Source: an uncultured Candidatus Saccharibacteria bacterium
Lineage (GTDB): Bacteria; Patescibacteriota; Dojkabacteria; SC72
Assembly (NCBI GenBank): GCA_964514595.1
Contig: CAZEQZ010000002.1
Span: forward strand, 29,812-93,811
Direction of reading: 5' to 3'
DNA: 64,000 nucleotides
Position 1 is the stretch's first letter. Each line of letters begins with the position of its first letter. Positions 28,014-36,289 of this stretch are shown here, piece by piece. Made by a program: the position numbers and the translations under genes. Under the pieces are notes generated by a model, which worked only from the letters and a program-made list of their open reading frames with translations, was not told the DNA's origin and searched no databases.

Positions 28014-29234
28014 ATGATTAAGAAACTATCAAGTAAAGAGCTACTTTTTGTAAAAAATCTTTTCCTAACTACTATACTTGGAGGAATCATAGGGATTATT
28101 AACTACTTCTTTAATATATTCATTGCAAGGTATACAGATTCCCAAGTATTTAGTATATTTAGCTCTGCTTTAGGGGTGATATATCTTCTTCAGATTCCTG
28201 CAATAGCTATTCAAGCCGTAATTACCAAAGGAATTGCCCAGAATAAAAACAAAGATCTTAATCATTACAAGTGGAACTCTTTTCTGATTTTTTCTGGTAT
28301 GGGTATTATTTTCTCAATACTTTTCTTTCTATTTAAAAATACCGTTGCCGATATTGCCTCAATACCTACAGAAACAATCCTATTTTTAGCTATAACCTTT
28401 CTCTTTGCATTTATGAGTCCAGTAGCAAAGGGATTGCTTTTAGGATTAGAGAAGATCGTTACTGTTAATATCGTCTTGCTTTTAGAGACTATACTTAAAT
28501 TTGCAATCGGTATAGTAGCGATAAGAATGGGAGGTGCTCTTCCTCTGTTAATTTTGGCCAATTCTGTTCCTGCTATTCTCACTACCGTTGTAATACTTCC
28601 TTTGATTAAATTTGAGAAGAGAGATTTTGAAAGAGTTAAAATCAATTATATCGAGCTTGTACTCATAACTCTATCCATTCTTCTTCTAACTGCACCCTTT
28701 ACAGTTGATTTGATACTTGTAAATCCAGCGTTTAGACCAGAGTATGCAGCTATATCTCTTCTTGGGAAGCTTGTATATTTTGCATCTATAACTACAGGAG
28801 CAGTTATGTTTGCAAGACTTACAAATGAAAGCGAAGCAAAAAATCAAAGAAGGAGTTTAATGATTTCATTAATACTTTCTCTCTCTATTGGGTTGTTCAT
28901 CTCTACCCTATTTTTCATATTTAATGGCTATGTTGTTGATCTAACTGTTGGAAGCCAGTACGGTATGATTAGTAAATATATCGGGGTGTTTGGTCTTTGT
29001 ATGACGGGCTTTGCATTTGTATATATGGCTGCTAATTTTTTCATATCAAAAGGTTTTTTTAAATATCTATATATTCTCTTTATTACAACAGTACTTCAAA
29101 TACTTCTTTTTATTATTAGGAATGATTCTTTAGATATGGTTATACAAAATCAGATATTTGTATATATATTTCTTTCATTTGCAACGTTAATATATTTAAT
29201 AATTAAATTAAGAGATATTAAGAATGGTAGATAA
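28014..29234 (+). CDS. polytopic membrane protein, oligosaccharide/lipid-linked-glycan flippase-like (Wzx/MurJ-like superfamily)
   Basis: About 12 TM helices across 406 aa. The family assignment is by topology only. Confidence 0.45.
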   Translation: MIKKLSSKELLFVKNLFLTTILGGIIGIINYFFNIFIARYTDSQVFSIFSSALGVIYLLQIPAIAIQAVITKGIAQNKNKDLNHYKWNSFLIFSGMGIIFSILFFLFKNTVADIASIPTETILFLAITFLFAFMSPVAKGLLLGLEKIVTVNIVLLLETILKFAIGIVAIRMGGALPLLILANSVPAILTTVVILPLIKFEKRDFERVKINYIELVLITLSILLLTAPFTVDLILVNPAFRPEYAAISLLGKLVYFASITTGAVMFARLTNESEAKNQRRSLMISLILSLSIGLFISTLFFIFNGYVVDLTVGSQYGMISKYIGVFGLCMTGFAFVYMAANFFISKGFFKYLYILFITTVLQILLFIIRNDSLDMVIQNQIFVYIFLSFATLIYLIIKLRDIKNGR

Positions 29235-29718
29235 TAAGGTGATTAAGAAAAAAACTAAAAAGCTCACTAATGATTTTAAACAGTTTGCTTTTAAAGAGGC
29301 CACACTAGGTGCTGCAGTGGGTATTATGTTAGGTGCTGCATTTAGGGATGTAATAAATTCTTTGGTTAATGATGTCCTTACACCTCCTATTGCATATATT
29401 ACATCTGGTATAGATTTCACTTCTCTATATTTCACATTTGGTTCTACTAAGTATGAGAGTATTGAATTAGCAAGGGAAGCAGGTGCAGTGATTATTCATT
29501 ACGGAAATTTTATTAGTGAGTTCATTACATTTCTAATTACCGCTTTTATTCTATTTCTTTTAGCATATCAAGGTGGAAAGATAGTTAATAGATTAAACAA
29601 AAAAGAAGCGGAAAGGAAGAAAAGTAAAGAGAAGAAGTGTCCGTTTTGTAAATCGAAGATACATGAGGAGGCTACTAGATGTCCGTTTTGTACGAGTAGG
29701 TTAGAAAATGGACGATGA
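29224..29718 (+). CDS. mscL: large-conductance mechanosensitive channel MscL with a C-terminal Cys4 zinc-ribbon extension
   Basis: FKQFAFKEATLGAAVGIMLGAAFRDVINSLVNDVLTPP plus a second TM match MscL. The C-terminus carries CPFCKSKIHEEATRCPFC. Confidence 0.85.
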   Translation: MVDNKVIKKKTKKLTNDFKQFAFKEATLGAAVGIMLGAAFRDVINSLVNDVLTPPIAYITSGIDFTSLYFTFGSTKYESIELAREAGAVIIHYGNFISEFITFLITAFILFLLAYQGGKIVNRLNKKEAERKKSKEKKCPFCKSKIHEEATRCPFCTSRLENGR

Positions 29719-29803: not shown

Positions 29804-30088
29804 TTATTCGGGCCTCCTTGGATAGTTCGTAGATACTGGCGGATACTCTGTACTCTCTTGTACAGGTTGTTCTGCTACATTCTGGTCTGCAATACCTTCC
29901 TGAGCTATATCTTCCCCCTTATCCTCTTCCTCTGGGATTCTTTCTTTTATATTCCTCCACATTAAAAGAAATACTACCAAAAGGAAAGGGAATGCTACAG
30001 CTACAAGTATGTTTCTTGTAACAATGCCTGTTATAACAGCAAGTATTAAACAACCTATTAATGTGAATATGATCCTCCCCATTGTCAT
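29804..30088 (-). CDS. small membrane protein with an acidic C-terminal tail
   Basis: 94 aa with 2 TM helices followed by an E/D/Q-rich tail. Confidence 0.4.
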   Translation of the reverse strand: MTMGRIIFTLIGCLILAVITGIVTRNILVAVAFPFLLVVFLLMWRNIKERIPEEEDKGEDIAQEGIADQNVAEQPVQESTEYPPVSTNYPRRPE

Positions 30089-30107: not shown

Positions 30108-33100
30108 TTAAGATTTTTTCACCTTTATCCTCTCTGCAAGAATGTAGTTATCTTTTCTCACATCAATGAAAGTCCCCCTCTTGATATCAACTAACTCCCA
30201 ACCTTTCTCCGCAATATCAAGCTCATATTTACCTTTGTCTAATATAAATCTATATTTACCTTTACTGTTTGTTACTCTTTTAGCTATTACCTTATTGAAT
30301 TCCTTTTCTCGTATAGTTATAGATATGTTAGATAGTGGCTTACCCTTCTCATCTACAACTTTTCCATATTTACCTTTCTTATTAAAGAAAGAGTTTATTA
30401 AAATATATAACGGGATTATATACAGAAGAAGAAATATTAGATTATTACTATTCCTGTGTGTGTAGTATGTGTACGAGGATATGGTCACTCCCACAATAAA
30501 TATGAAGACATTGAGTATTGATAGTGCTTTAACTAATATATTCTTGATTCTGTGAAATACCATTTGACCACCTAGAATCTCTTTAGGATCTATAGGAACA
30601 GCAATTTGTATATCCGTATCTTCTGACGATATATCTAGGCTACCAGTATATACATTCTGTAATGGATAATCATGTGGACCCTTTACATATATACTTGGGT
30701 ATTCATATCCAGACTTAGATACTTTTAACAAATACTTTCCCTTTCCTAAGCTAGCAGAGAATCTCCCATTGATATCTGTAACAGCTGTATCCACCAACCT
30801 ATCCTTAGTATTAAATACTCTAACTAATGCCATATGGACAGGTTCTTTAGTATTAGAATCATATACAAACCCGTAATTAACCCTCTTCTTTCTAAAGCCT
30901 AAGGAACTCAAAATTAACATCATAAATTGCGATACCATATATCCCAACTGTGTTAACCCACCAAAGAGAGCTGTAGCTCCTACCGTTACAGTTACTACAT
31001 TTGCTGTTGTGGAAATAGTCCGAAGCTCCCTCTCTTCAAGATTGGTCACAACATCTGTATTTATCAATATGCCTAAAGTATTATCCTTTATAAAGTTTGT
31101 AATTTTCTGAATAGTTGATTGCTTTGGAACAGCCTTCTCTGATTTCGACTCCTCTTTTTTCTCCTCCACGACAGGTTTATCTACTTTAGTATCTTTCGGT
31201 TCTTCATAGTAGAATCCTAGTCCTCCTGTACCTCTTAACCCATCAGCAACCCAATAATTTATTCCACCTATTACTACCTTAGACACCGTAACTGATGACT
31301 CCCCTACATTCTTTTTACTCGGAAACTCCCCTGTAAATTGTACTGCTCCCGAACACTTCTCCTTTACTTCCTCTAACTGAGAGGCACCTGGGCAAAGCAG
31401 AAACGCATTCGTATCATCTGCATTAACATACATTGTGAACGGATTAGAGACACCATGATTCTCTTGAAGCTTTATTACTGTCTTCCTCTCTTCTGGAGCA
31501 CTTAGTATTATAGCGTCCTGCCAATCCCTATCCTGATTAAATAAAACAGGAATATCCGCTACTAGGAGATCCCCTTTCTTTATCCTAACATTCCTTTCCC
31601 CGAATTGAGCATTATTACGTACTGTTAAATCTATATTCTCTTGAGTAGCCAGGGTAGCACGAAGTGTACTGTCAATATTTCTCAATATAGCCCCTGTACC
31701 GATGAAGATTGGATCACTCCAACCAGTTTGTACTAGAGATTTATTTCTAGCCTTAACTGAAAACCCATACTGAACTCCTGTCTCCAATCCATTTACTATT
31801 ACTCCATTAGCAGATCCAAAATTAGAGAAAGTTCCCCATTTTTCCTGAACAGTTAATGTCCCTAATTCAAAATCTAAATACCTACCACTATTGTTTTCTC
31901 TAATTAATAACTCTGTATCTGCTGGATTATCTAAAGTATTAATATATACCCTAGCACTATCACTTGACACAGCATTCACCCTAACCATGGATGGGCTCTG
32001 AGCGAAGGTATATATTGATTGATTCGTTGACCAGGTTGTAGCAACATTCTTTTTATTTAAACTTCTTACTTTAAATTCGTACTCAGTATTAGGAAGCAAT
32101 CCATCAATATCGATACTGGAAGAAAATGGAGTAATGGAGGAGGAAGTCATTAATATTTTCAGATCATTATTGTAATATCTATTACTCTTATTCTCCACTA
32201 TCTGTAGGCTATCCCTACTACTTCCAGATATTGCTAATCTAACAGAGGATGCTCCTGTTGCAGTTACTGAGGATATCCTAGAAGGTTCTGAGTGCGTAGA
32301 GAAAAGAAATGTATTTGAATAATCACTTTCAGATATATTACTGTACACTTTCACCTTCCTAGCATATTCTGTATTAGAGGAGAGATTTCCCTCTATACAC
32401 TGGTTCATACTATTAACAGAGCAGGTGATCAACAGATTGTTATTGGAATCATAGATCTTATATCCTACCTTAGAAGCATTGCTATCCGTTACTCTCCAAG
32501 TAAATGAACTGGCTGTTGTTGTGAGAGCTGAGAGTAGTGTCGGAGGATATAGTTTAGTTGCAACTGTAACTGATTGAGAAAATTCACTTTCTATATCCGC
32601 TTCATTTCTAGATTTAACTTTGAATCTGTATTCCGTACCTACTTCCAACCCAACAACTTCCTTTCCATTCTCCGACCCGAACTGAGTATATGTTCCCCAT
32701 ACCTCCTCATCTACCAAAGCTCCTGTAGAGATATCTACATACTTGTTCGTACTTTCTTCCATAATTGCATATTGTGTACCTACAGGGTTATTATCCTGAC
32801 TTAAAGCAACAGTTATACTGTTTATAGTTCGTGCAATTAATACTGGTACATTTGGTATATCTGATTTAGTATATGTCCCTATATACTCACTAAAGGTAGT
32901 TTCTATACCATTATAGTTTCTAGATTTCACCCTGAAGAAATAAAGGGTATTAGGTTCTAAATTAGTTACTGCTGTACTTTCTGATTGAGTCCATACGGAA
33001 ATTCCCTCATTACAATCTAATTCCTCACATTCAAAAAATACGCCTGAATTACCGTCATTTATATTATTTACCCCCTCTGCTGTTAAAGAGACTGAAGAAG

Positions 33101-35534
33101 ATGAAAGAGGAGACAAAGATATGGATGGAACTTCTGCCAAAGTATATATTGTTATACTCTCAGAATATTCGGTTTCAACACCATCTCCATTTCTGCCCTT
33201 CACTCTGAAAGTATATGCGGTATTAAAATCCAAATTAGTTACCTCATCACTACTGGTAGATATCCATTCATTAATACCTGTGTCACATCCTGTATTCTCA
33301 CAATCAAAATATATTTCCGACCCATTTATCTGACCGAGGGCAGACAGATTTATCGTTGAAACAGTTTTCTCTCCTCCTTCTAGTATTGTTGGTGGCGAGA
33401 GTAGTGTATACACATATGCAAGTTCAGAAGGGGCACTTTCTCCTGAGGAATTGTATGCAGTAATTTTTCTAGAATATTGAGTATTCTCATCAAGACCAGT
33501 CTCATCACAATATGTTAAGTCCTCTCCAAGGCAGTATTTAATTAAATTGTCTTCTTCATCATACAGAGCAAATCCTTCTTCATTGTTAGCATTATCTGAG
33601 AAGTGCCATCTGATGACAGAGGTTGACAAAGCTTCAGGTGTCCCCATTGTTGGGACTTCAGGAGCCGTAGAATAAGTTAGAGATACACCTTCTAATACAG
33701 GAGTGTCTTGTCCACTATTAGTATCAAAAGATATTTTGTAATAAAACTCAGAAGTTTGTAGATCTAATTCTTCCAGAATGATCTCTACATTTTCACCAAG
33801 GATTAGCTCATCATCACCATCTTCTATTCCAGAGGAATCAAACCACATTAAAGAATCCGTACTAAATTGAATAGAAGCTGAAGTCCCCACAGGTTTAGAA
33901 GATAGAGTATAAGAGAAGGACTGTATAAAAACATTATTTTCTTCCGAAATCAAATCAGACGATTGCAAAGTCATTGAGTTGGCGTATGCAGGGCTCACTT
34001 GTGAACTTGCGACAGGGGTGGAATTACCATTAAAAGAAGTCGTGTATTCTATACGAACCCTACCATCACCTCCGGCAACTCCTCGTGTAGATGGAACACC
34101 AGCAGATGCAGTAGTAGAAGACTCACTTAAACTTATTTGCCCTCCTACTATCTTAATAGCACCACCTGCGCCGGTTCCTCCCCCAGAACCCTTGGATTCA
34201 GGTTCCGCAGTAATGTTTCCTCCATTACTTTTTATTGAGCCCAACACATTTATATCAGTCCCCAAAATAAATATTATTCCTCCTCCACGACTCCCACTCG
34301 TACCATCATAATAAGATCCCGATAACCCTTGACCTGCACCACCTCCACCTCCACCTCCTCCGAAATTAAGCCTAGACAAATCAGCTTCTCCCGCGCTTTT
34401 ACCACCACCCCCTCCTCCAGCCGAGTATCTCTTATCTCCGTAATGCAAAGCCCCCGCTCCCCCGGCTCCACTGGCCGAAGATGTTCCCCCATCCCCAGAG
34501 GTCACCCTACTATATCCCCCCACTCCTGGGGTTCCATAACCACCGCCCCCTCCTCCTCCACCTAAACCATCACAGTCATTTGTTGTACATTTTGTATTTG
34601 TAGAACCACCACCCCCTCCTCCAACTGATCCGTAATCATTACTTCCAGCTCCTCCTGCCCTGTTAGATCCTCCGCCACCACCACCACTCCAACTTCCTGC
34701 ATACCCTACTGCACCAGTAGCTCCTCCCTTCCCATCGTTTCCAGATACTGGGAAATATCCTTCTCCAGGAGTAGTATTACATGCTCCTACAGCACACTTA
34801 TTTCCTCCTCTATATCCCAAAGCAGAAACATCTATATTTCCGTTTACATTAACTACCCCAGAAGCTTCAAACGAGAAAACTCCTCCTTTTGTACCATCCC
34901 ATGCATCAGGATACCAATTTACCCCAGCATTAACTGTTACATCACTATACTGGGGAATTCTCTGAACCATTATTTTTTGTGTAGTACCATTGTATCCATT
35001 TGTCAGATTCCTATCTAAAGAGAGAATTTCGCCTACTACATTCTCTACGTATGCAGTTTCATACTGTCCGACATTTGAATGATCTGCTTGTGTACCTTGT
35101 AAGTTTATTATCAATATTTCATCCCCTATCGACAACCCCGTAGCTACAGAAGATAGGGTTATGCTATCACTCCCAGCCACCACATTTTCTGTTACAGAGA
35201 AATTAACTGCATCTCCATCCACTCTCCCAACACAGCTCCCAGTATTAATGTTTGTATTTACAGAAACAGTACAAATTCCATCATTCCCTGTTCCAAAACT
35301 AACTTTACTAACTTTAACAGTTCCCTCCCCAATATCATAATTAGATGAATTGACCTGATCTATTAAATCTAATGTGCTGAAATCCTCTACTACGGTATGT
35401 GCAACACTTTGTATGGTTCTTGCAAGATATAAATAAACAGCTATAGGTAAAAATGTGATTACTGTAAATACTGAAAGAATAACTATAAACCTCCTCCAAT
35501 TAAAATTCCCTAAGAGTGTTTTCTTTTTCTTCAT
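30108..35534 (-). CDS. giant (1808 aa) cell-surface protein: signal anchor, Gly-rich beta region, about 8 FN3-like repeats, then TM helices interleaved with two CarboxypepD_reg-like domains
   Basis: N-terminal TM. Poly-Gly runs at aa ~230–560 (GGGGGGS, GLGGGGGGGGYGTPG). Repeated ~90-aa FN3-like units (e.g. ...YFDCENTGCDTGINEWISTSSDEVTNLDFNTAYTFRVKGRNGDGVETEYSESITIYTLAEVP). Hydrophobic helices at aa ~1480–1520 and ~1660–1720. Two transthyretin-like segments (GFVYDSNTKEPVHMALVRVF...; GKVVDEKGKPLSNISITIRE...). Confidence 0.7.
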   Translation of the reverse strand: MKKKKTLLGNFNWRRFIVILSVFTVITFLPIAVYLYLARTIQSVAHTVVEDFSTLDLIDQVNSSNYDIGEGTVKVSKVSFGTGNDGICTVSVNTNINTGSCVGRVDGDAVNFSVTENVVAGSDSITLSSVATGLSIGDEILIINLQGTQADHSNVGQYETAYVENVVGEILSLDRNLTNGYNGTTQKIMVQRIPQYSDVTVNAGVNWYPDAWDGTKGGVFSFEASGVVNVNGNIDVSALGYRGGNKCAVGACNTTPGEGYFPVSGNDGKGGATGAVGYAGSWSGGGGGGSNRAGGAGSNDYGSVGGGGGGSTNTKCTTNDCDGLGGGGGGGGYGTPGVGGYSRVTSGDGGTSSASGAGGAGALHYGDKRYSAGGGGGGKSAGEADLSRLNFGGGGGGGGAGQGLSGSYYDGTSGSRGGGIIFILGTDINVLGSIKSNGGNITAEPESKGSGGGTGAGGAIKIVGGQISLSESSTTASAGVPSTRGVAGGDGRVRIEYTTSFNGNSTPVASSQVSPAYANSMTLQSSDLISEENNVFIQSFSYTLSSKPVGTSASIQFSTDSLMWFDSSGIEDGDDELILGENVEIILEELDLQTSEFYYKISFDTNSGQDTPVLEGVSLTYSTAPEVPTMGTPEALSTSVIRWHFSDNANNEEGFALYDEEDNLIKYCLGEDLTYCDETGLDENTQYSRKITAYNSSGESAPSELAYVYTLLSPPTILEGGEKTVSTINLSALGQINGSEIYFDCENTGCDTGINEWISTSSDEVTNLDFNTAYTFRVKGRNGDGVETEYSESITIYTLAEVPSISLSPLSSSSVSLTAEGVNNINDGNSGVFFECEELDCNEGISVWTQSESTAVTNLEPNTLYFFRVKSRNYNGIETTFSEYIGTYTKSDIPNVPVLIARTINSITVALSQDNNPVGTQYAIMEESTNKYVDISTGALVDEEVWGTYTQFGSENGKEVVGLEVGTEYRFKVKSRNEADIESEFSQSVTVATKLYPPTLLSALTTTASSFTWRVTDSNASKVGYKIYDSNNNLLITCSVNSMNQCIEGNLSSNTEYARKVKVYSNISESDYSNTFLFSTHSEPSRISSVTATGASSVRLAISGSSRDSLQIVENKSNRYYNNDLKILMTSSSITPFSSSIDIDGLLPNTEYEFKVRSLNKKNVATTWSTNQSIYTFAQSPSMVRVNAVSSDSARVYINTLDNPADTELLIRENNSGRYLDFELGTLTVQEKWGTFSNFGSANGVIVNGLETGVQYGFSVKARNKSLVQTGWSDPIFIGTGAILRNIDSTLRATLATQENIDLTVRNNAQFGERNVRIKKGDLLVADIPVLFNQDRDWQDAIILSAPEERKTVIKLQENHGVSNPFTMYVNADDTNAFLLCPGASQLEEVKEKCSGAVQFTGEFPSKKNVGESSVTVSKVVIGGINYWVADGLRGTGGLGFYYEEPKDTKVDKPVVEEKKEESKSEKAVPKQSTIQKITNFIKDNTLGILINTDVVTNLEERELRTISTTANVVTVTVGATALFGGLTQLGYMVSQFMMLILSSLGFRKKRVNYGFVYDSNTKEPVHMALVRVFNTKDRLVDTAVTDINGRFSASLGKGKYLLKVSKSGYEYPSIYVKGPHDYPLQNVYTGSLDISSEDTDIQIAVPIDPKEILGGQMVFHRIKNILVKALSILNVFIFIVGVTISSYTYYTHRNSNNLIFLLLYIIPLYILINSFFNKKGKYGKVVDEKGKPLSNISITIREKEFNKVIAKRVTNSKGKYRFILDKGKYELDIAEKGWELVDIKRGTFIDVRKDNYILAERIKVKKS

Positions 35535-35671: not shown

Positions 35672-36289
35672 CTAAAAAAGCCCCCATTTATTCATATCCT
35701 CAGACACTCCCATTATTACAGAAATCTTCTCAGGAAGAATATCCTTATTCAATGCTAACACCGTTAATCTTAGATGACCTTCCAACACAACAAATTCGTT
35801 TCCATCAGAAACAAGAATCATTTCGTCAAAAGACTTATTTTTCTTAAAATACTCTGATGCTTCTAAGAGATTATCATACGGCACATCATAGACCATCTCA
35901 TTATTTCTAATTTTGCGCACAGCATCTTTAGACAATCTAGAACCATTTGTTAACTCTACCCAATAATCATAATTAATAAACAAAACTTCGTTTATGAGAA
36001 AATCCTTAGAGACCTCTACACGAAACCATTTGATATTTTGTGGGAATCCACCAAAGAGACCTTTTCTAGAAACATATTTTCTTGTTTCTTCAAGAATTTC
36101 TAGTCTTATATCATTCTCTTGGGAGTTGTTGAGATCAGGATTTTGAATTATAGAATTAGTTACTCCCAATTTTTCAATTGCCATCTTAATCTTTTCAGAA
36201 AATCTTTCAGACTTAAGTTCTCCTTTTAAGAATACGCTTATTACTTCAGCTTCAGAGATTGGTTTAAGATCTAATCCAGATATATTCAT
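35672..36289 (-). CDS. hypothetical protein
   Basis: 205-aa ORF directly downstream of tRNA-Val(UAC). No family recognised. Confidence 0.35.
   Translation of the reverse strand: MNISGLDLKPISEAEVISVFLKGELKSERFSEKIKMAIEKLGVTNSIIQNPDLNNSQENDIRLEILEETRKYVSRKGLFGGFPQNIKWFRVEVSKDFLINEVLFINYDYWVELTNGSRLSKDAVRKIRNNEMVYDVPYDNLLEASEYFKKNKSFDEMILVSDGNEFVVLEGHLRLTVLALNKDILPEKISVIMGVSEDMNKWGLF

What the first reader, a model, noticed from the sequence alone, without database searches (positions are those of the whole stretch)
30108..35534. 1808-aa surface protein with a polyglycine region, FN3 repeat array and dual transthyretin-like domains interleaved with TM helices
This is the largest gene in the window. 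After the signal anchor come about 300 residues dominated by runs of 5–9 glycines. The motifs GGxGGxG, GSxxGGG and YGTPGVGGY resemble glycine-rich beta-roll or beta-helix sequences and could be structural or adhesive. An array of about 8 FN3-like repeats follows. It is rich in Cys pairs (FDCENTGCDTG, FECEELDCNEG), which suggests disulfide-stabilised extracellular modules. The C-terminal 330 residues are unusual. Two clusters of hydrophobic helices alternate with two CarboxypepD_reg-like beta-sandwiches, which implies a multi-pass membrane anchor and not a simple sortase or signal-anchor attachment. Giant adhesin-like proteins of this type are candidates for host or partner-cell attachment in small-genome bacteria.
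Basis: partly seen in the sequence, partly recalled or inferred. Interest (0 to 1): 0.55.

Follow-up and report, generated by a model that had tools for sequence, protein, structure and literature searches.

The report
Giant surface protein with unusual anchor
This is a real 1808-residue cell-surface protein of a tiny-genome (Dojkabacteria/CPR) bacterium, with a glycine-rich beta-solenoid head on a stalk of seven FN3 domains; it ends in a roughly 310-residue membrane-anchor module that no family library or paper we searched describes, although about two thousand protein clusters seem to share it.

Summary
The ORF at 30108-35534 (-) encodes 1808 aa. It has an N-terminal signal anchor, a glycine-rich region (91 Gly in aa 240-500, five runs of 6-8 Gly), seven FN3 repeats (not eight) with Cys pairs, and a C-terminus in which hydrophobic segments alternate with two CarboxypepD_reg sandwiches. 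It is not an artefact: the identical protein lies on 15 independently assembled contigs, and full-length orthologues (34-65% identity) sit in the same gene neighbourhood.

The Gly-rich region is part of a discrete ~455-aa head domain. AF2 models it with pLDDT 85. It is a beta-solenoid with no solved relative by sequence. The domain recurs in more than 100 giant proteins, mostly of CPR bacteria.

The C-terminal ~310 aa are the more interesting part. They form a conserved module that nearly always ends the protein. 2510 representative clusters match at E<=1e-30. The module is fused to unrelated ectodomains and also exists as a stand-alone ~320-aa protein.

Charge statistics across the family place both sandwiches in the cytoplasm (about 0.6 confidence). 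This is a bioinformatic inference and has not been shown experimentally. An adhesin role is plausible but untested.

The parts
30108..35534 (-). Complete CDS, 1808 aa plus stop codon
   Evidence: The identical protein P0001 lies on 15 contigs from NCBI, JGI, ENA and Logan assemblies.
35400..35534 (-). Signal anchor or signal peptide, aa 1-45. It has a basic n-region (KKKK..RR), a 22-aa h-region and a possible SVA|H cleavage site.
   Evidence: Kyte-Doolittle 2.55 and Hessa dG -1.0. Orthologues keep the ...SVA|Y/H or IGA|A motif, and shorter family members have classical AXA signal peptides. Cleavage is inferred.
33990..35357 (-). Glycine-rich head domain, aa ~60-515. An N-terminal conserved beta sub-domain (aa ~80-235) is followed by the poly-Gly zone (aa ~240-420) and then regular solenoid rungs (aa ~420-515).
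33663..33989 (-). Beta-sandwich that follows the head domain, aa 516-624
   Evidence: AF2 strands at model residues 477-563, pLDDT about 80-87. It is conserved in the full-length orthologues.
31689..33662 (-). Array of seven FN3 repeats, aa 625-1282. Repeats 1, 2, 3 and 5 carry a CxxxxC or Cx7C pair.
   Evidence: Pfam fn3 at 96 bits in 7 stretches. My segmentation and self-derived HMM give 7 units.
31200..31688 (-). Pre-anchor beta domain, aa 1283-1445, with Cys 1381/1394 and the YW.ADGL.GTGG motif
   Evidence: There is no Pfam hit. It is conserved in the orthologues. Its motif lies upstream of the module in 30 of 100 module-bearing representatives. The AF2 model is only low-confidence beta structure.
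31041..31199 (-). Charged Lys/Glu linker plus a predicted helix, aa 1446-1498
   Evidence: Composition. AF2 gives pLDDT below 50.
30111..31040 (-). C-terminal anchor module, aa 1499-1808
   Evidence: A profile of the module matches 2510 representative clusters at E<=1e-30. Most top hits cover profile positions 3-310 in one stretch that ends at the protein's C-terminus. Stand-alone forms exist.
30894..31010 (-). Charge-free segment 'a+b', aa 1509-1547. Part 'a' is rich in T/V/A/G. Part 'b' is an amphipathic helix with the family-conserved L-P-Y..Q....L..LG pattern (L-G-Y in this protein). It is followed by RKKR (aa 1548-1551, nt 30882-30893).
   Evidence: Family columns 11-49 have K+R and D+E at or below 0.03 per 10-column block; single columns 31 and 38 carry 24-29% charged residues. 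The Hessa-scale dG is marginal. A single membrane crossing is inferred.
30570..30881 (-). CarboxypepD_reg-like sandwich 1, aa 1552-1655
   Evidence: Pfam PF13620 at 68.7 bits in 2 stretches. AF2 pLDDT about 70-80.
30381..30548 (-). Transmembrane hairpin: TM2 (aa 1663-1689), an 11-residue loop YTYYTHRNSNN, and TM3 (aa 1695-1718)
   Evidence: Kyte-Doolittle 2.33 and 2.38, Hessa dG +1.0 and -0.8. AF2 predicts helices at 1655-1692 and 1696-1717 with pLDDT 70-80.
30111..30380 (-). CarboxypepD_reg/SpaA-like sandwich 2, aa 1719-1808, net charge +12
   Evidence: Pfam hits to PF13620, PF13715 and PF17802. Charge.
29804..30088 (-). Small gene (94 aa, two TM helices plus an acidic tail) 19 nt downstream. 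It is probably co-transcribed, and it is conserved downstream of the orthologous giant genes.
   Evidence: No minus-strand terminator lies in the gap.

Best explanation
The gene encodes a Sec-exported giant surface protein of a Dojkabacteria (CPR) bacterium that stays anchored in the cytoplasmic membrane.

From N- to C-terminus it has:
- a signal peptide or signal anchor
- a ~455-aa glycine-rich beta-solenoid head, which is the likely ligand-binding or contact end
- a beta-sandwich
- a stalk of seven FN3 domains stiffened by short-range Cys pairs
- a conserved pre-anchor domain
- a charged linker
- a ~310-aa C-terminal anchor module

I propose that the module crosses the membrane three times: once in the charge-free segment aa 1509-1547, then as the TM2/TM3 hairpin. 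This would put both basic CarboxypepD_reg-like sandwiches on the cytoplasmic face and the acidic ~1450-aa ectodomain outside.

The module is a portable anchor that many unrelated surface proteins share. The head and stalk give this copy its specificity, most plausibly attachment to a partner cell or substrate.

Shown: the domain anatomy, the fold class of the head, the conservation of the module, its C-terminal position and its modularity.
Inferred: the topology, signal-peptide cleavage and the adhesive function.
For: Anatomy.

Export:
- The n-region is basic and the h-region is strong.
- 76 of 88 complete family members have an N-terminal hydrophobic segment.
- Shorter members have classical AXA signal peptides.

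Head domain:
- The AF2 model has pLDDT 85.1.
- Foldseek against the PDB matches tailspikes and depolymerases at E = 2e-6.
- Foldseek against BFVD matches a prasinovirus PA14 protein at E = 1.5e-17 with TM-score 0.50.
- The domain recurs with LamG, DUF2341 and FN3 partners in giant CPR proteins.

Module conservation and modularity:
- 16232, 6145 and 2510 representative clusters match at E<=1e-3, 1e-10 and 1e-30.
- Of 119 full-length matches, 94 end within 8 residues of the C-terminus, in proteins of 282 to 3662 aa.
- Ectodomains fused to it include Big_1, Big_7, fn3, InlB B-repeats and Cys-rich repeats.
- Stand-alone proteins of 313-359 aa exist.

Topology:
- K+R frequency is 0.06 before the first segment and 0.08 in the TM2-TM3 loop. 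It is 0.27 after the first segment, 0.18 before TM2 and 0.25 after TM3.
- Ectodomains carry a net negative charge in 105 of 105 proteins (mean -0.080 per residue).
- The post-TM1 module carries a net positive charge in 93% of them (mean +0.040 per residue).
- In this protein the ectodomain has net charge -72 and the module +18.
- Stand-alone forms start with an uncharged or acidic N-tail, then a strong TM, then R, then helix b.

Lineage: orthologues lie in the same TsaD/enolase...MscL synteny, and P0153 is annotated as candidate division WS6.

Literature: giant surface proteins of CPR bacteria are generally read as host-attachment factors (PMC8080830, PMC11809585).
Against: - No experiment and no dedicated topology predictor was available.
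- The segment that must cross the membrane once (aa 1509-1547) is only marginally hydrophobic. The simple Hessa sum is above +3.5 in this protein, and the family median of the best 19-residue window is +3.1.
- AF2 is unconfident for that segment, with pLDDT below 50.
- CarboxypepD_reg, SdrD_B and SpaA-type sandwiches are extracellular or periplasmic in the characterised proteins I know of. This prior rests on my own knowledge.
- The module is nearly free of Cys (0.16% against 1.11% in the ectodomains). This does not point clearly either way.
- There is no evidence for what the head binds. Its strongly conserved polar motifs (GTGxDG, GDEILIINLQG, QKIMVQR) could equally mark an enzyme or a metal site.
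Confidence: 0.6

Rival explanations
1. The protein and its anchor are the same, but the topology is the opposite. Segment aa 1509-1547 either does not cross the membrane or crosses it twice as a hairpin. Both CarboxypepD_reg sandwiches would then be extracellular stalk or wall-proximal domains, and the protein would be held only by the TM2/TM3 hairpin.
For: - The a+b segment is only marginally hydrophobic, and AF2 models it at low confidence.
- Its 39 charge-free residues with a central conserved Pro could form a tight hairpin.
- Part 'a' has an alternating V/T pattern that suggests a beta strand.
- Relatives P0011 and P0012 carry a CarboxypepD_reg domain directly before a single C-terminal TM, so that domain is outside the cell.
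- Domains of this superfamily are normally extracytoplasmic (my own knowledge). PDB profile hits to the sandwiches are SdrD, the T6 pilin and collagen adhesin.
Against: - It violates the positive-inside rule at every flank across 116 family members.
- It does not explain why the module is basic while every ectodomain is acidic.
- In the stand-alone forms the N-terminal TM has no positive n-region, so it would make a poor export signal.
Confidence: 0.25
2. The head domain is an enzyme, not an adhesin. It would be a glycan depolymerase or lyase of the tailspike or pectate-lyase type that attacks the envelope or capsule of a host cell.
For: - The best Foldseek PDB hits are phage tailspikes and capsule depolymerases, with E from 2e-6 to 5e-4.
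- The N-terminal sub-domain has invariant Asp, Glu, Gln and Arg residues.
Against: - Global superposition is poor (TM-score about 0.14, identity 8-10%).
- There is no sequence match to any glycoside hydrolase, polysaccharide lyase or pectate-lyase family in Pfam or NCBIfam.
Confidence: 0.2
3. It is a structural envelope component, such as a surface layer or a spacer, with no specific binding partner.
For: - Its neighbours are housekeeping genes and the synteny is conserved, with no accessory or mobile context.
- The orthologues are well conserved, at 34-65% identity over the full length. Variable adhesins are not usually this stable.
Against: - The head domain is shuffled among many different architectures.
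- The same genome has a paralogue with the same head on a different body (P0018). This pattern is more typical of binding modules.
Confidence: 0.12
4. The Gly-rich region or the whole ORF is an assembly or annotation artefact.
For: None found.
Against: - The identical protein lies on 15 contigs from independent assemblies.
- Orthologues conserve the Gly-rich domain residue by residue, with 26 invariant columns.
- Gly codons are mixed and there is no long tandem repeat.
- The AF2 model is confident.
Confidence: 0.01

Closest known systems
Giant membrane or surface proteins of CPR/Patescibacteria (for example Vampirococcus lugosii, PMC8080830; Patescibacterium danicum 'FhaB/DUF2341' exoproteins, PMC11809585)
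   Same: They come from the same group of organisms. They are very large exported proteins built from FN3, Ig-like, beta-helix ('FhaB') and DUF2341/LamG modules, and they are presumed to mediate host attachment. The head domain of this protein co-occurs with exactly these partners.
   Different: Those papers do not describe a conserved C-terminal module of TM segments and CarboxypepD_reg sandwiches. This protein has stable orthologues in conserved synteny, whereas the P. danicum giants are reported to have no full-length homologues.
Beta-helix adhesins of two-partner secretion and autotransporter systems (FHA/FhaB, HMW1, HxuA, EtpA; IcsA, UpaB)
   Different: Identity is only 12-16% and there is no match at sequence-profile level. 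I saw no TpsB or beta-barrel partner, and these bacteria are generally held to lack an outer membrane (my own knowledge). The glycine content is far higher, and anchoring is by an inner-membrane module.
Phage tailspikes and capsule depolymerases (phi297 gp61, LKA1 gp49, AP22 gp54, K64-1 S2-4)
   Same: These are the best Foldseek PDB hits, and they are parallel beta-helices.
   Different: TM-score is about 0.14 and identity 8-10%. No catalytic motif or family was found. This protein gives no sign of being a trimeric virion protein.
AgmC N-terminal domain of Myxococcus (NCBIfam NF047640, 'adventurous gliding motility protein AgmC')
   Same: It is the only named family with sequence similarity to the head: aa 80-326 score 61 bits at E = 8e-17.
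   Different: The score is far below the equivalog cutoff of 275 bits. Only the N-terminal part matches. The rest of the architecture could not be compared, and the papers I searched did not give AgmC's role.
Gram-positive MSCRAMM or pilin stalks (SdrD B, Cna-B, SpaA prealbumin-like domains) with LPXTG/sortase anchoring
   Same: The C-terminal sandwiches belong to the same superfamily (Pfam SpaA and SdrD_B hits, and PDB profile hits to SdrD, the T6 pilin and collagen adhesin). Both are C-terminally anchored surface proteins of bacteria that lack an outer membrane (my own knowledge for CPR).
   Different: There is no LPXTG motif. The sandwiches are interleaved with TM segments and, by charge bias, lie on the cytoplasmic side. 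Anchoring is by integral membrane helices, not by covalent attachment to the cell wall.
N-terminal CarboxypepD_reg-like domain of SusC-type TonB-dependent transporters (my own knowledge)
   Same: It is the same domain family (PF13715) placed next to a membrane-embedded part, on the cell-interior side of that membrane.
   Different: That domain is periplasmic and attached to an outer-membrane barrel. Here it is attached to alpha-helical inner-membrane segments and occurs in two copies.

Membership tests
Fibronectin type III (Pfam PF00041) | The whole-protein score exceeds the gathering cutoff, with repeated ~90-aa beta-sandwich units | tested here: met
   96 bits against a cutoff of 25, in 7 stretches. 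Seven units lie at aa 625-1282. A PDB FN3 domain matches at E = 0.006.
CarboxypepD_reg (Pfam PF13620 / PF13715) | The score exceeds the gathering cutoff | tested here: met
   PF13620 scores 68.7 bits against 32.3 in 2 stretches, and PF13715 scores 49.7 against 32.2. AF2 models both as beta-sandwiches.
Gly_rich_2 (Pfam PF21722) | A match to the 226-position profile | tested here: not met
   The window protein gives no hit even at E<=1. The hit in orthologue P0003 (aa 489-737) lies in an insert that the window protein lacks.
AgmC N-terminal domain (NCBIfam NF047640, equivalog_domain) | A score of at least 275 bits over the 412-position profile | tested here: not met
   61.3 bits, covering profile positions 27-279 only. 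This indicates distant homology of the N-terminal half of the head, not membership.
RTX / parallel beta-roll | Tandem GGxGxDxUx nonapeptides | tested here: not met
   There are zero GGxGxD motifs.
Sortase-anchored (LPXTG) surface proteins | A C-terminal LPXTG motif followed by a hydrophobic stretch and a basic tail | tested here: not met
   There is no LPx[TSA]G anywhere, and the protein ends in a folded sandwich.
Two-partner-secretion exoproteins (FhaB/TpsA) | An N-terminal TPS domain recognised at sequence level, plus a TpsB transporter in an outer membrane | tested here: not met
   Only fold-class similarity was found. There is no Pfam or NCBIfam TPS hit and no TpsB gene among the neighbours I checked.
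Polyglycine-II bundle proteins (phage gp38 adhesin tip, snow-flea antifreeze protein, Obg N-domain; my own knowledge) | Packed left-handed PGII helices formed by Gly-rich motifs | not testable with these tools
C-terminal 'TM / sandwich / TM hairpin / sandwich' anchor module (family defined here) | A full-length match to the 311-position profile that ends at the C-terminus | tested here: met
   The window ORF matches profile positions 2-311 at 457 bits and ends at the last residue. However, the window protein is itself the first sequence of the A1 alignment from which the profile was built. The independent support is that 118 other proteins give full-length matches.

The most novel reading that the evidence does not exclude
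The C-terminal ~310-aa module may be a distinct way of anchoring surface proteins, and the family libraries and papers searched here do not describe it. It would be a three-pass membrane device that places two basic beta-sandwich domains in the cytoplasm. In that case it would do more than tether the protein. It could link extracellular adhesins to a cytoplasmic partner, either mechanically or for regulation, in the way integrin tails do. Or it could be a substrate or partner of the site-2-protease-like gene that always follows the stand-alone form. As a class it would stand alongside the sortase/LPXTG, PEP-CTERM and T9SS C-terminal-domain anchoring systems.
Probability: 0.3. Interest if true: 0.7.

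Novelty: new variant of a known kind. Interest (0 to 1): 0.5.

Why it matters
CPR/Patescibacteria make up a large share of bacterial diversity and are thought to live attached to other cells. How their surface proteins are held on the cell is largely unknown.

This gene shows a reusable C-terminal anchor that appears in roughly two thousand protein clusters and is fused to many different ectodomains. It is an obvious handle for three things:
- listing the surface proteome of these organisms from sequence alone
- designing topology and localisation experiments
- asking whether surface adhesins are coupled to the cell interior

The head domain is also a Pfam-less, confidently modelled glycine-rich solenoid. 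It is shared with giant algal-virus proteins and has no solved structure.

Tried and rejected
- The afdb50 fold library was not installed, so no comparison with AlphaFold DB was possible.
The narrower alignment found only 5 syntenic loci, so the taxonomic breadth of the module could not be mapped.
- Word-indexed homologue searches with the module returned few hits, all short proteins, and omitted even the known orthologues. The exhaustive profile search was needed.
- Cluster look-ups gave almost no organism names.
- Membership of Gly_rich_2, RTX beta-roll, LPXTG and TPS proteins was tested and rejected.
- The polyglycine-II lead could not be tested because no model coordinates were available.
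- Profile searches against PDB sequences gave nothing for the head. For the module they gave only generic sandwich hits (NOMO2, SdrD, T6 pilin).
- Full-text searches for AgmC, for CarboxypepD_reg in Patescibacteria, and for giant CPR surface proteins found no description of the module. Absence from that library is not proof of absence.
- The small downstream two-TM gene was tested as a general partner of the module and rejected. It accompanies only the orthologous group.
- The upstream 205-aa ORF is not conserved next to orthologue P0003.
- No M50-like gene lies in the window.
Full report
**1. Observation**

The ORF at 30108..35534 (-) is real. It encodes 1808 aa and is the longest ORF in the window. 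The window has about 34% G+C and carries housekeeping genes around the ORF: tRNAs, enolase, TsaD, MscL and RmuC.

The identical protein (P0001) is on record from NCBI, JGI, ENA and Logan assemblies, on 15 contigs of up to 760 kb. Full-length orthologues at 34-65% identity end to end exist (P0002-P0008). One of them (P0003) sits in the same TsaD/enolase...MscL/polysaccharide-synthase neighbourhood. Relatives are annotated as Candidatus Dojkabacteria or candidate division WS6.

- There are five Gly runs of 6-8 residues, and 91 of 261 residues in aa 240-500 are Gly.
- There are eight close Cys pairs.
- There are seven FN3 repeats, not about eight.

The Gly-rich DNA uses mixed Gly codons and contains no long tandem repeat. 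The artefact hypothesis is therefore excluded.

**2. The head domain**

Residues ~60-515 behave as one mobile unit. phmmer against the 120 retrieved homologues finds 170 domain instances. There are one to three per protein, in proteins of 1000-3100 aa that also carry LamG, DUF2341, FN3 or Ig-like repeats. A paralogue in the same genome (P0018) has the same head on a DUF2341/Ig body.

An AF2 model of aa 60-630, built from a 24-sequence alignment, is confident (pLDDT 85.1, pTM 0.79).
- Foldseek against the PDB finds tailspikes and depolymerases, with E down to 2e-6 but TM-score about 0.14.
- The best structural neighbour overall is a prasinovirus PA14-domain protein in BFVD (E = 1.5e-17, TM-score 0.50).
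- A sequence profile of the domain finds nothing in the PDB.

Pfam has no model for this domain. The Gly_rich_2 hit seen in orthologue P0003 lies in an insert that this protein lacks. The only named sequence relative is the N-terminal domain of Myxococcus AgmC, far below its cutoff.

There are no RTX nonapeptides. The poly-Gly zone is modelled at pLDDT 81-95 yet has almost no DSSP helix or strand. That would fit polyglycine-II helices, but I could not test it.

The domain is therefore a glycine-rich beta-solenoid of a kind without a solved structure. Its 'beta-roll' guess is not.

**3. Stalk**

- aa 516-624 form a beta-sandwich.
- aa 625-1282 are seven FN3 units. Four of them carry a short-range Cys pair in equivalent loops.
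- aa 1283-1445 are a conserved, Pfam-less pre-anchor domain with another Cys pair. Its motif also precedes the module in 30 of 100 other module-bearing proteins.

**4. The C-terminal module**

The last ~310 aa are the most informative part. A profile built from 11 sequences was scored against 1.84 billion representative proteins. It matched 16232 at E<=1e-3, 6145 at E<=1e-10 and 2510 at E<=1e-30.

In the top 150, about four-fifths match the whole profile in one stretch. The remainder are giants with 11 to 73 repeated matches to the sandwich part of the profile. Extrapolating to roughly two thousand clusters is my own rough estimate.

Of 119 full matches, 94 end within 8 residues of the C-terminus, in proteins from 282 to 3662 aa. 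The ectodomains attached to the module are unrelated to each other: Big_1, Big_7, FN3, InlB B-repeats, Cys-rich repeats, LamG/DUF2341 and beta-helices. Only 19 of 100 have Gly runs.

A family of stand-alone proteins of 313-359 aa consists of the module alone behind one N-terminal TM helix. Pfam and NCBIfam recognise only the two sandwiches. I found no paper that describes the unit.

**5. Topology**

Across 116 aligned modules, profile columns 11-49 (aa 1509-1547 here) are almost free of charge and are followed by R/K-K-K.

K+R frequencies:

| Region | K+R frequency |
|---|---|
| Before the first segment (D+E 0.19) | 0.06 |
| TM2-TM3 loop | 0.08 |
| After the first segment | 0.27 |
| Before TM2 | 0.18 |
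| After TM3 | 0.25 |

(All.)

- Every one of 105 ectodomains is net acidic (mean -0.080 per residue). 93% of modules are net basic (mean +0.040 per residue).
- In this protein the values are -72 for the ectodomain and +18 for the module, with sandwich 2 at +12.
- Stand-alone forms begin with an uncharged or acidic tail, then a strong TM, then an Arg, then the amphipathic 'b' helix.

By the positive-inside rule (established knowledge), these data put both sandwiches in the cytoplasm and require one crossing within aa 1509-1547.

The weak point is that this segment is only marginally hydrophobic. The simple Hessa sum is above +3.5 in this protein, and the family median is +3.1. TM2 scores +1.0 and TM3 -0.8. 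AF2 is also unconfident for this segment.

Per-column analysis shows that part 'a' is rich in T/V/A/S/G. Part 'b' is an amphipathic helix with a conserved stripe of uncharged polar residues (Y, Q, G/S/N, S, G). This fits either a packing face in a three-helix bundle or an interfacial helix.

I rate the cytoplasmic model at about 0.6 and the extracellular-sandwich rival at about 0.25. The rival gains weight from two points. This sandwich superfamily is normally extracytoplasmic. And relatives P0011 and P0012 place one such domain outside the cell, before a simple C-terminal TM.

**6. Function**

Nothing in the neighbourhood points to a dedicated system. The exception is a 94-aa two-TM gene 19 nt downstream, with no terminator in between. 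It is conserved after the orthologous genes in five other loci. It does not follow more distant module-bearing genes.

The architecture is a distal binding-type solenoid on an FN3 stalk with a membrane anchor. CPR bacteria are thought to live as episymbionts. Papers on other CPR giant proteins (PMC8080830, PMC11809585) read such proteins as host-attachment factors. Attachment to a partner cell or substrate is therefore the most likely role. This is an inference. An enzymatic head (depolymerase-like) and a structural coat remain possible.

**7. Novelty and verdict**

As a giant adhesin-like CPR surface protein, this is one more member of a known kind. What sets it apart is the anchor. It is a widespread, portable module that the family libraries and papers I searched do not describe, and its sandwiches appear to face the cytoplasm. 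The head is also a structurally unsolved glycine-rich solenoid.

I class the finding as a new variant of a known kind and score its interest at 0.5. If the cytoplasmic placement and a coupling or regulatory role were confirmed, the module would deserve about 0.7.

Noticed in passing
window 29804-30088 (-); L001 6951-7235; L002 2117-2377; L003 6952-7140; L004 6952-7143; L009 12168-12467: A small gene of 62-99 aa, with two TM helices (motif ..GGIVT[RK][NS]L.V....P) and an acidic tail, lies 19-40 nt downstream of the giant gene in the window and in five orthologous loci. No terminator lies between the two genes in the window. The gene is absent downstream of more distant module-bearing genes (P0009, P0123).
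   Followed up: partly
L006 6001-7612; L010 4280-5858; L011 5001-6617 (stand-alone module loci): Stand-alone module genes (313-359 aa) are always followed, within 8-32 nt or overlapping, by a 209-214-aa site-2-protease-like Peptidase_M50 gene; the two sequences read (L006, L010) carry the HExxH and LDG motifs. The pair sits between rpmB (L28) and the rpsL-rpsG-fusA-tuf operon. The four loci may all belong to one clade, so the link could reflect shared synteny alone.
   Followed up: partly
P0003 aa 489-737 (L009); also P0146, P0153, P0167: A second, different glycine-rich domain (Pfam Gly_rich_2, with the motif ...SGTFTV..VLVVGGGGGG...GSGIVVVRY) is inserted into some orthologues and relatives but is absent from the window protein. 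Homologue annotations such as 'glycine-rich domain-containing protein' therefore refer to a different domain.
   Followed up: yes
P0018 (same 760-kb contig as the window protein, outside the window): A 1253-aa paralogue carries the same head domain (aa ~293-735) together with DUF2341 and three Ig_Rha78A_N-like repeats. It has no C-terminal module and no C-terminal TM segment, so it may be secreted or held on the cell in another way.
   Followed up: partly
window 35672-36289 (-): The 205-aa ORF directly upstream on the same strand has no Pfam hit. It is not conserved next to orthologue P0003.
   Followed up: partly
window 29224-29718 (+) and 28014-29234 (+): An MscL homologue carries a C-terminal CxxC...CxxC extension (CPFCKSK...CPFCTS) and overlaps the end of a flippase-like Polysacc_synt gene by 11 nt. 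Both genes are syntenic with the giant gene in the orthologous loci.
   Followed up: no
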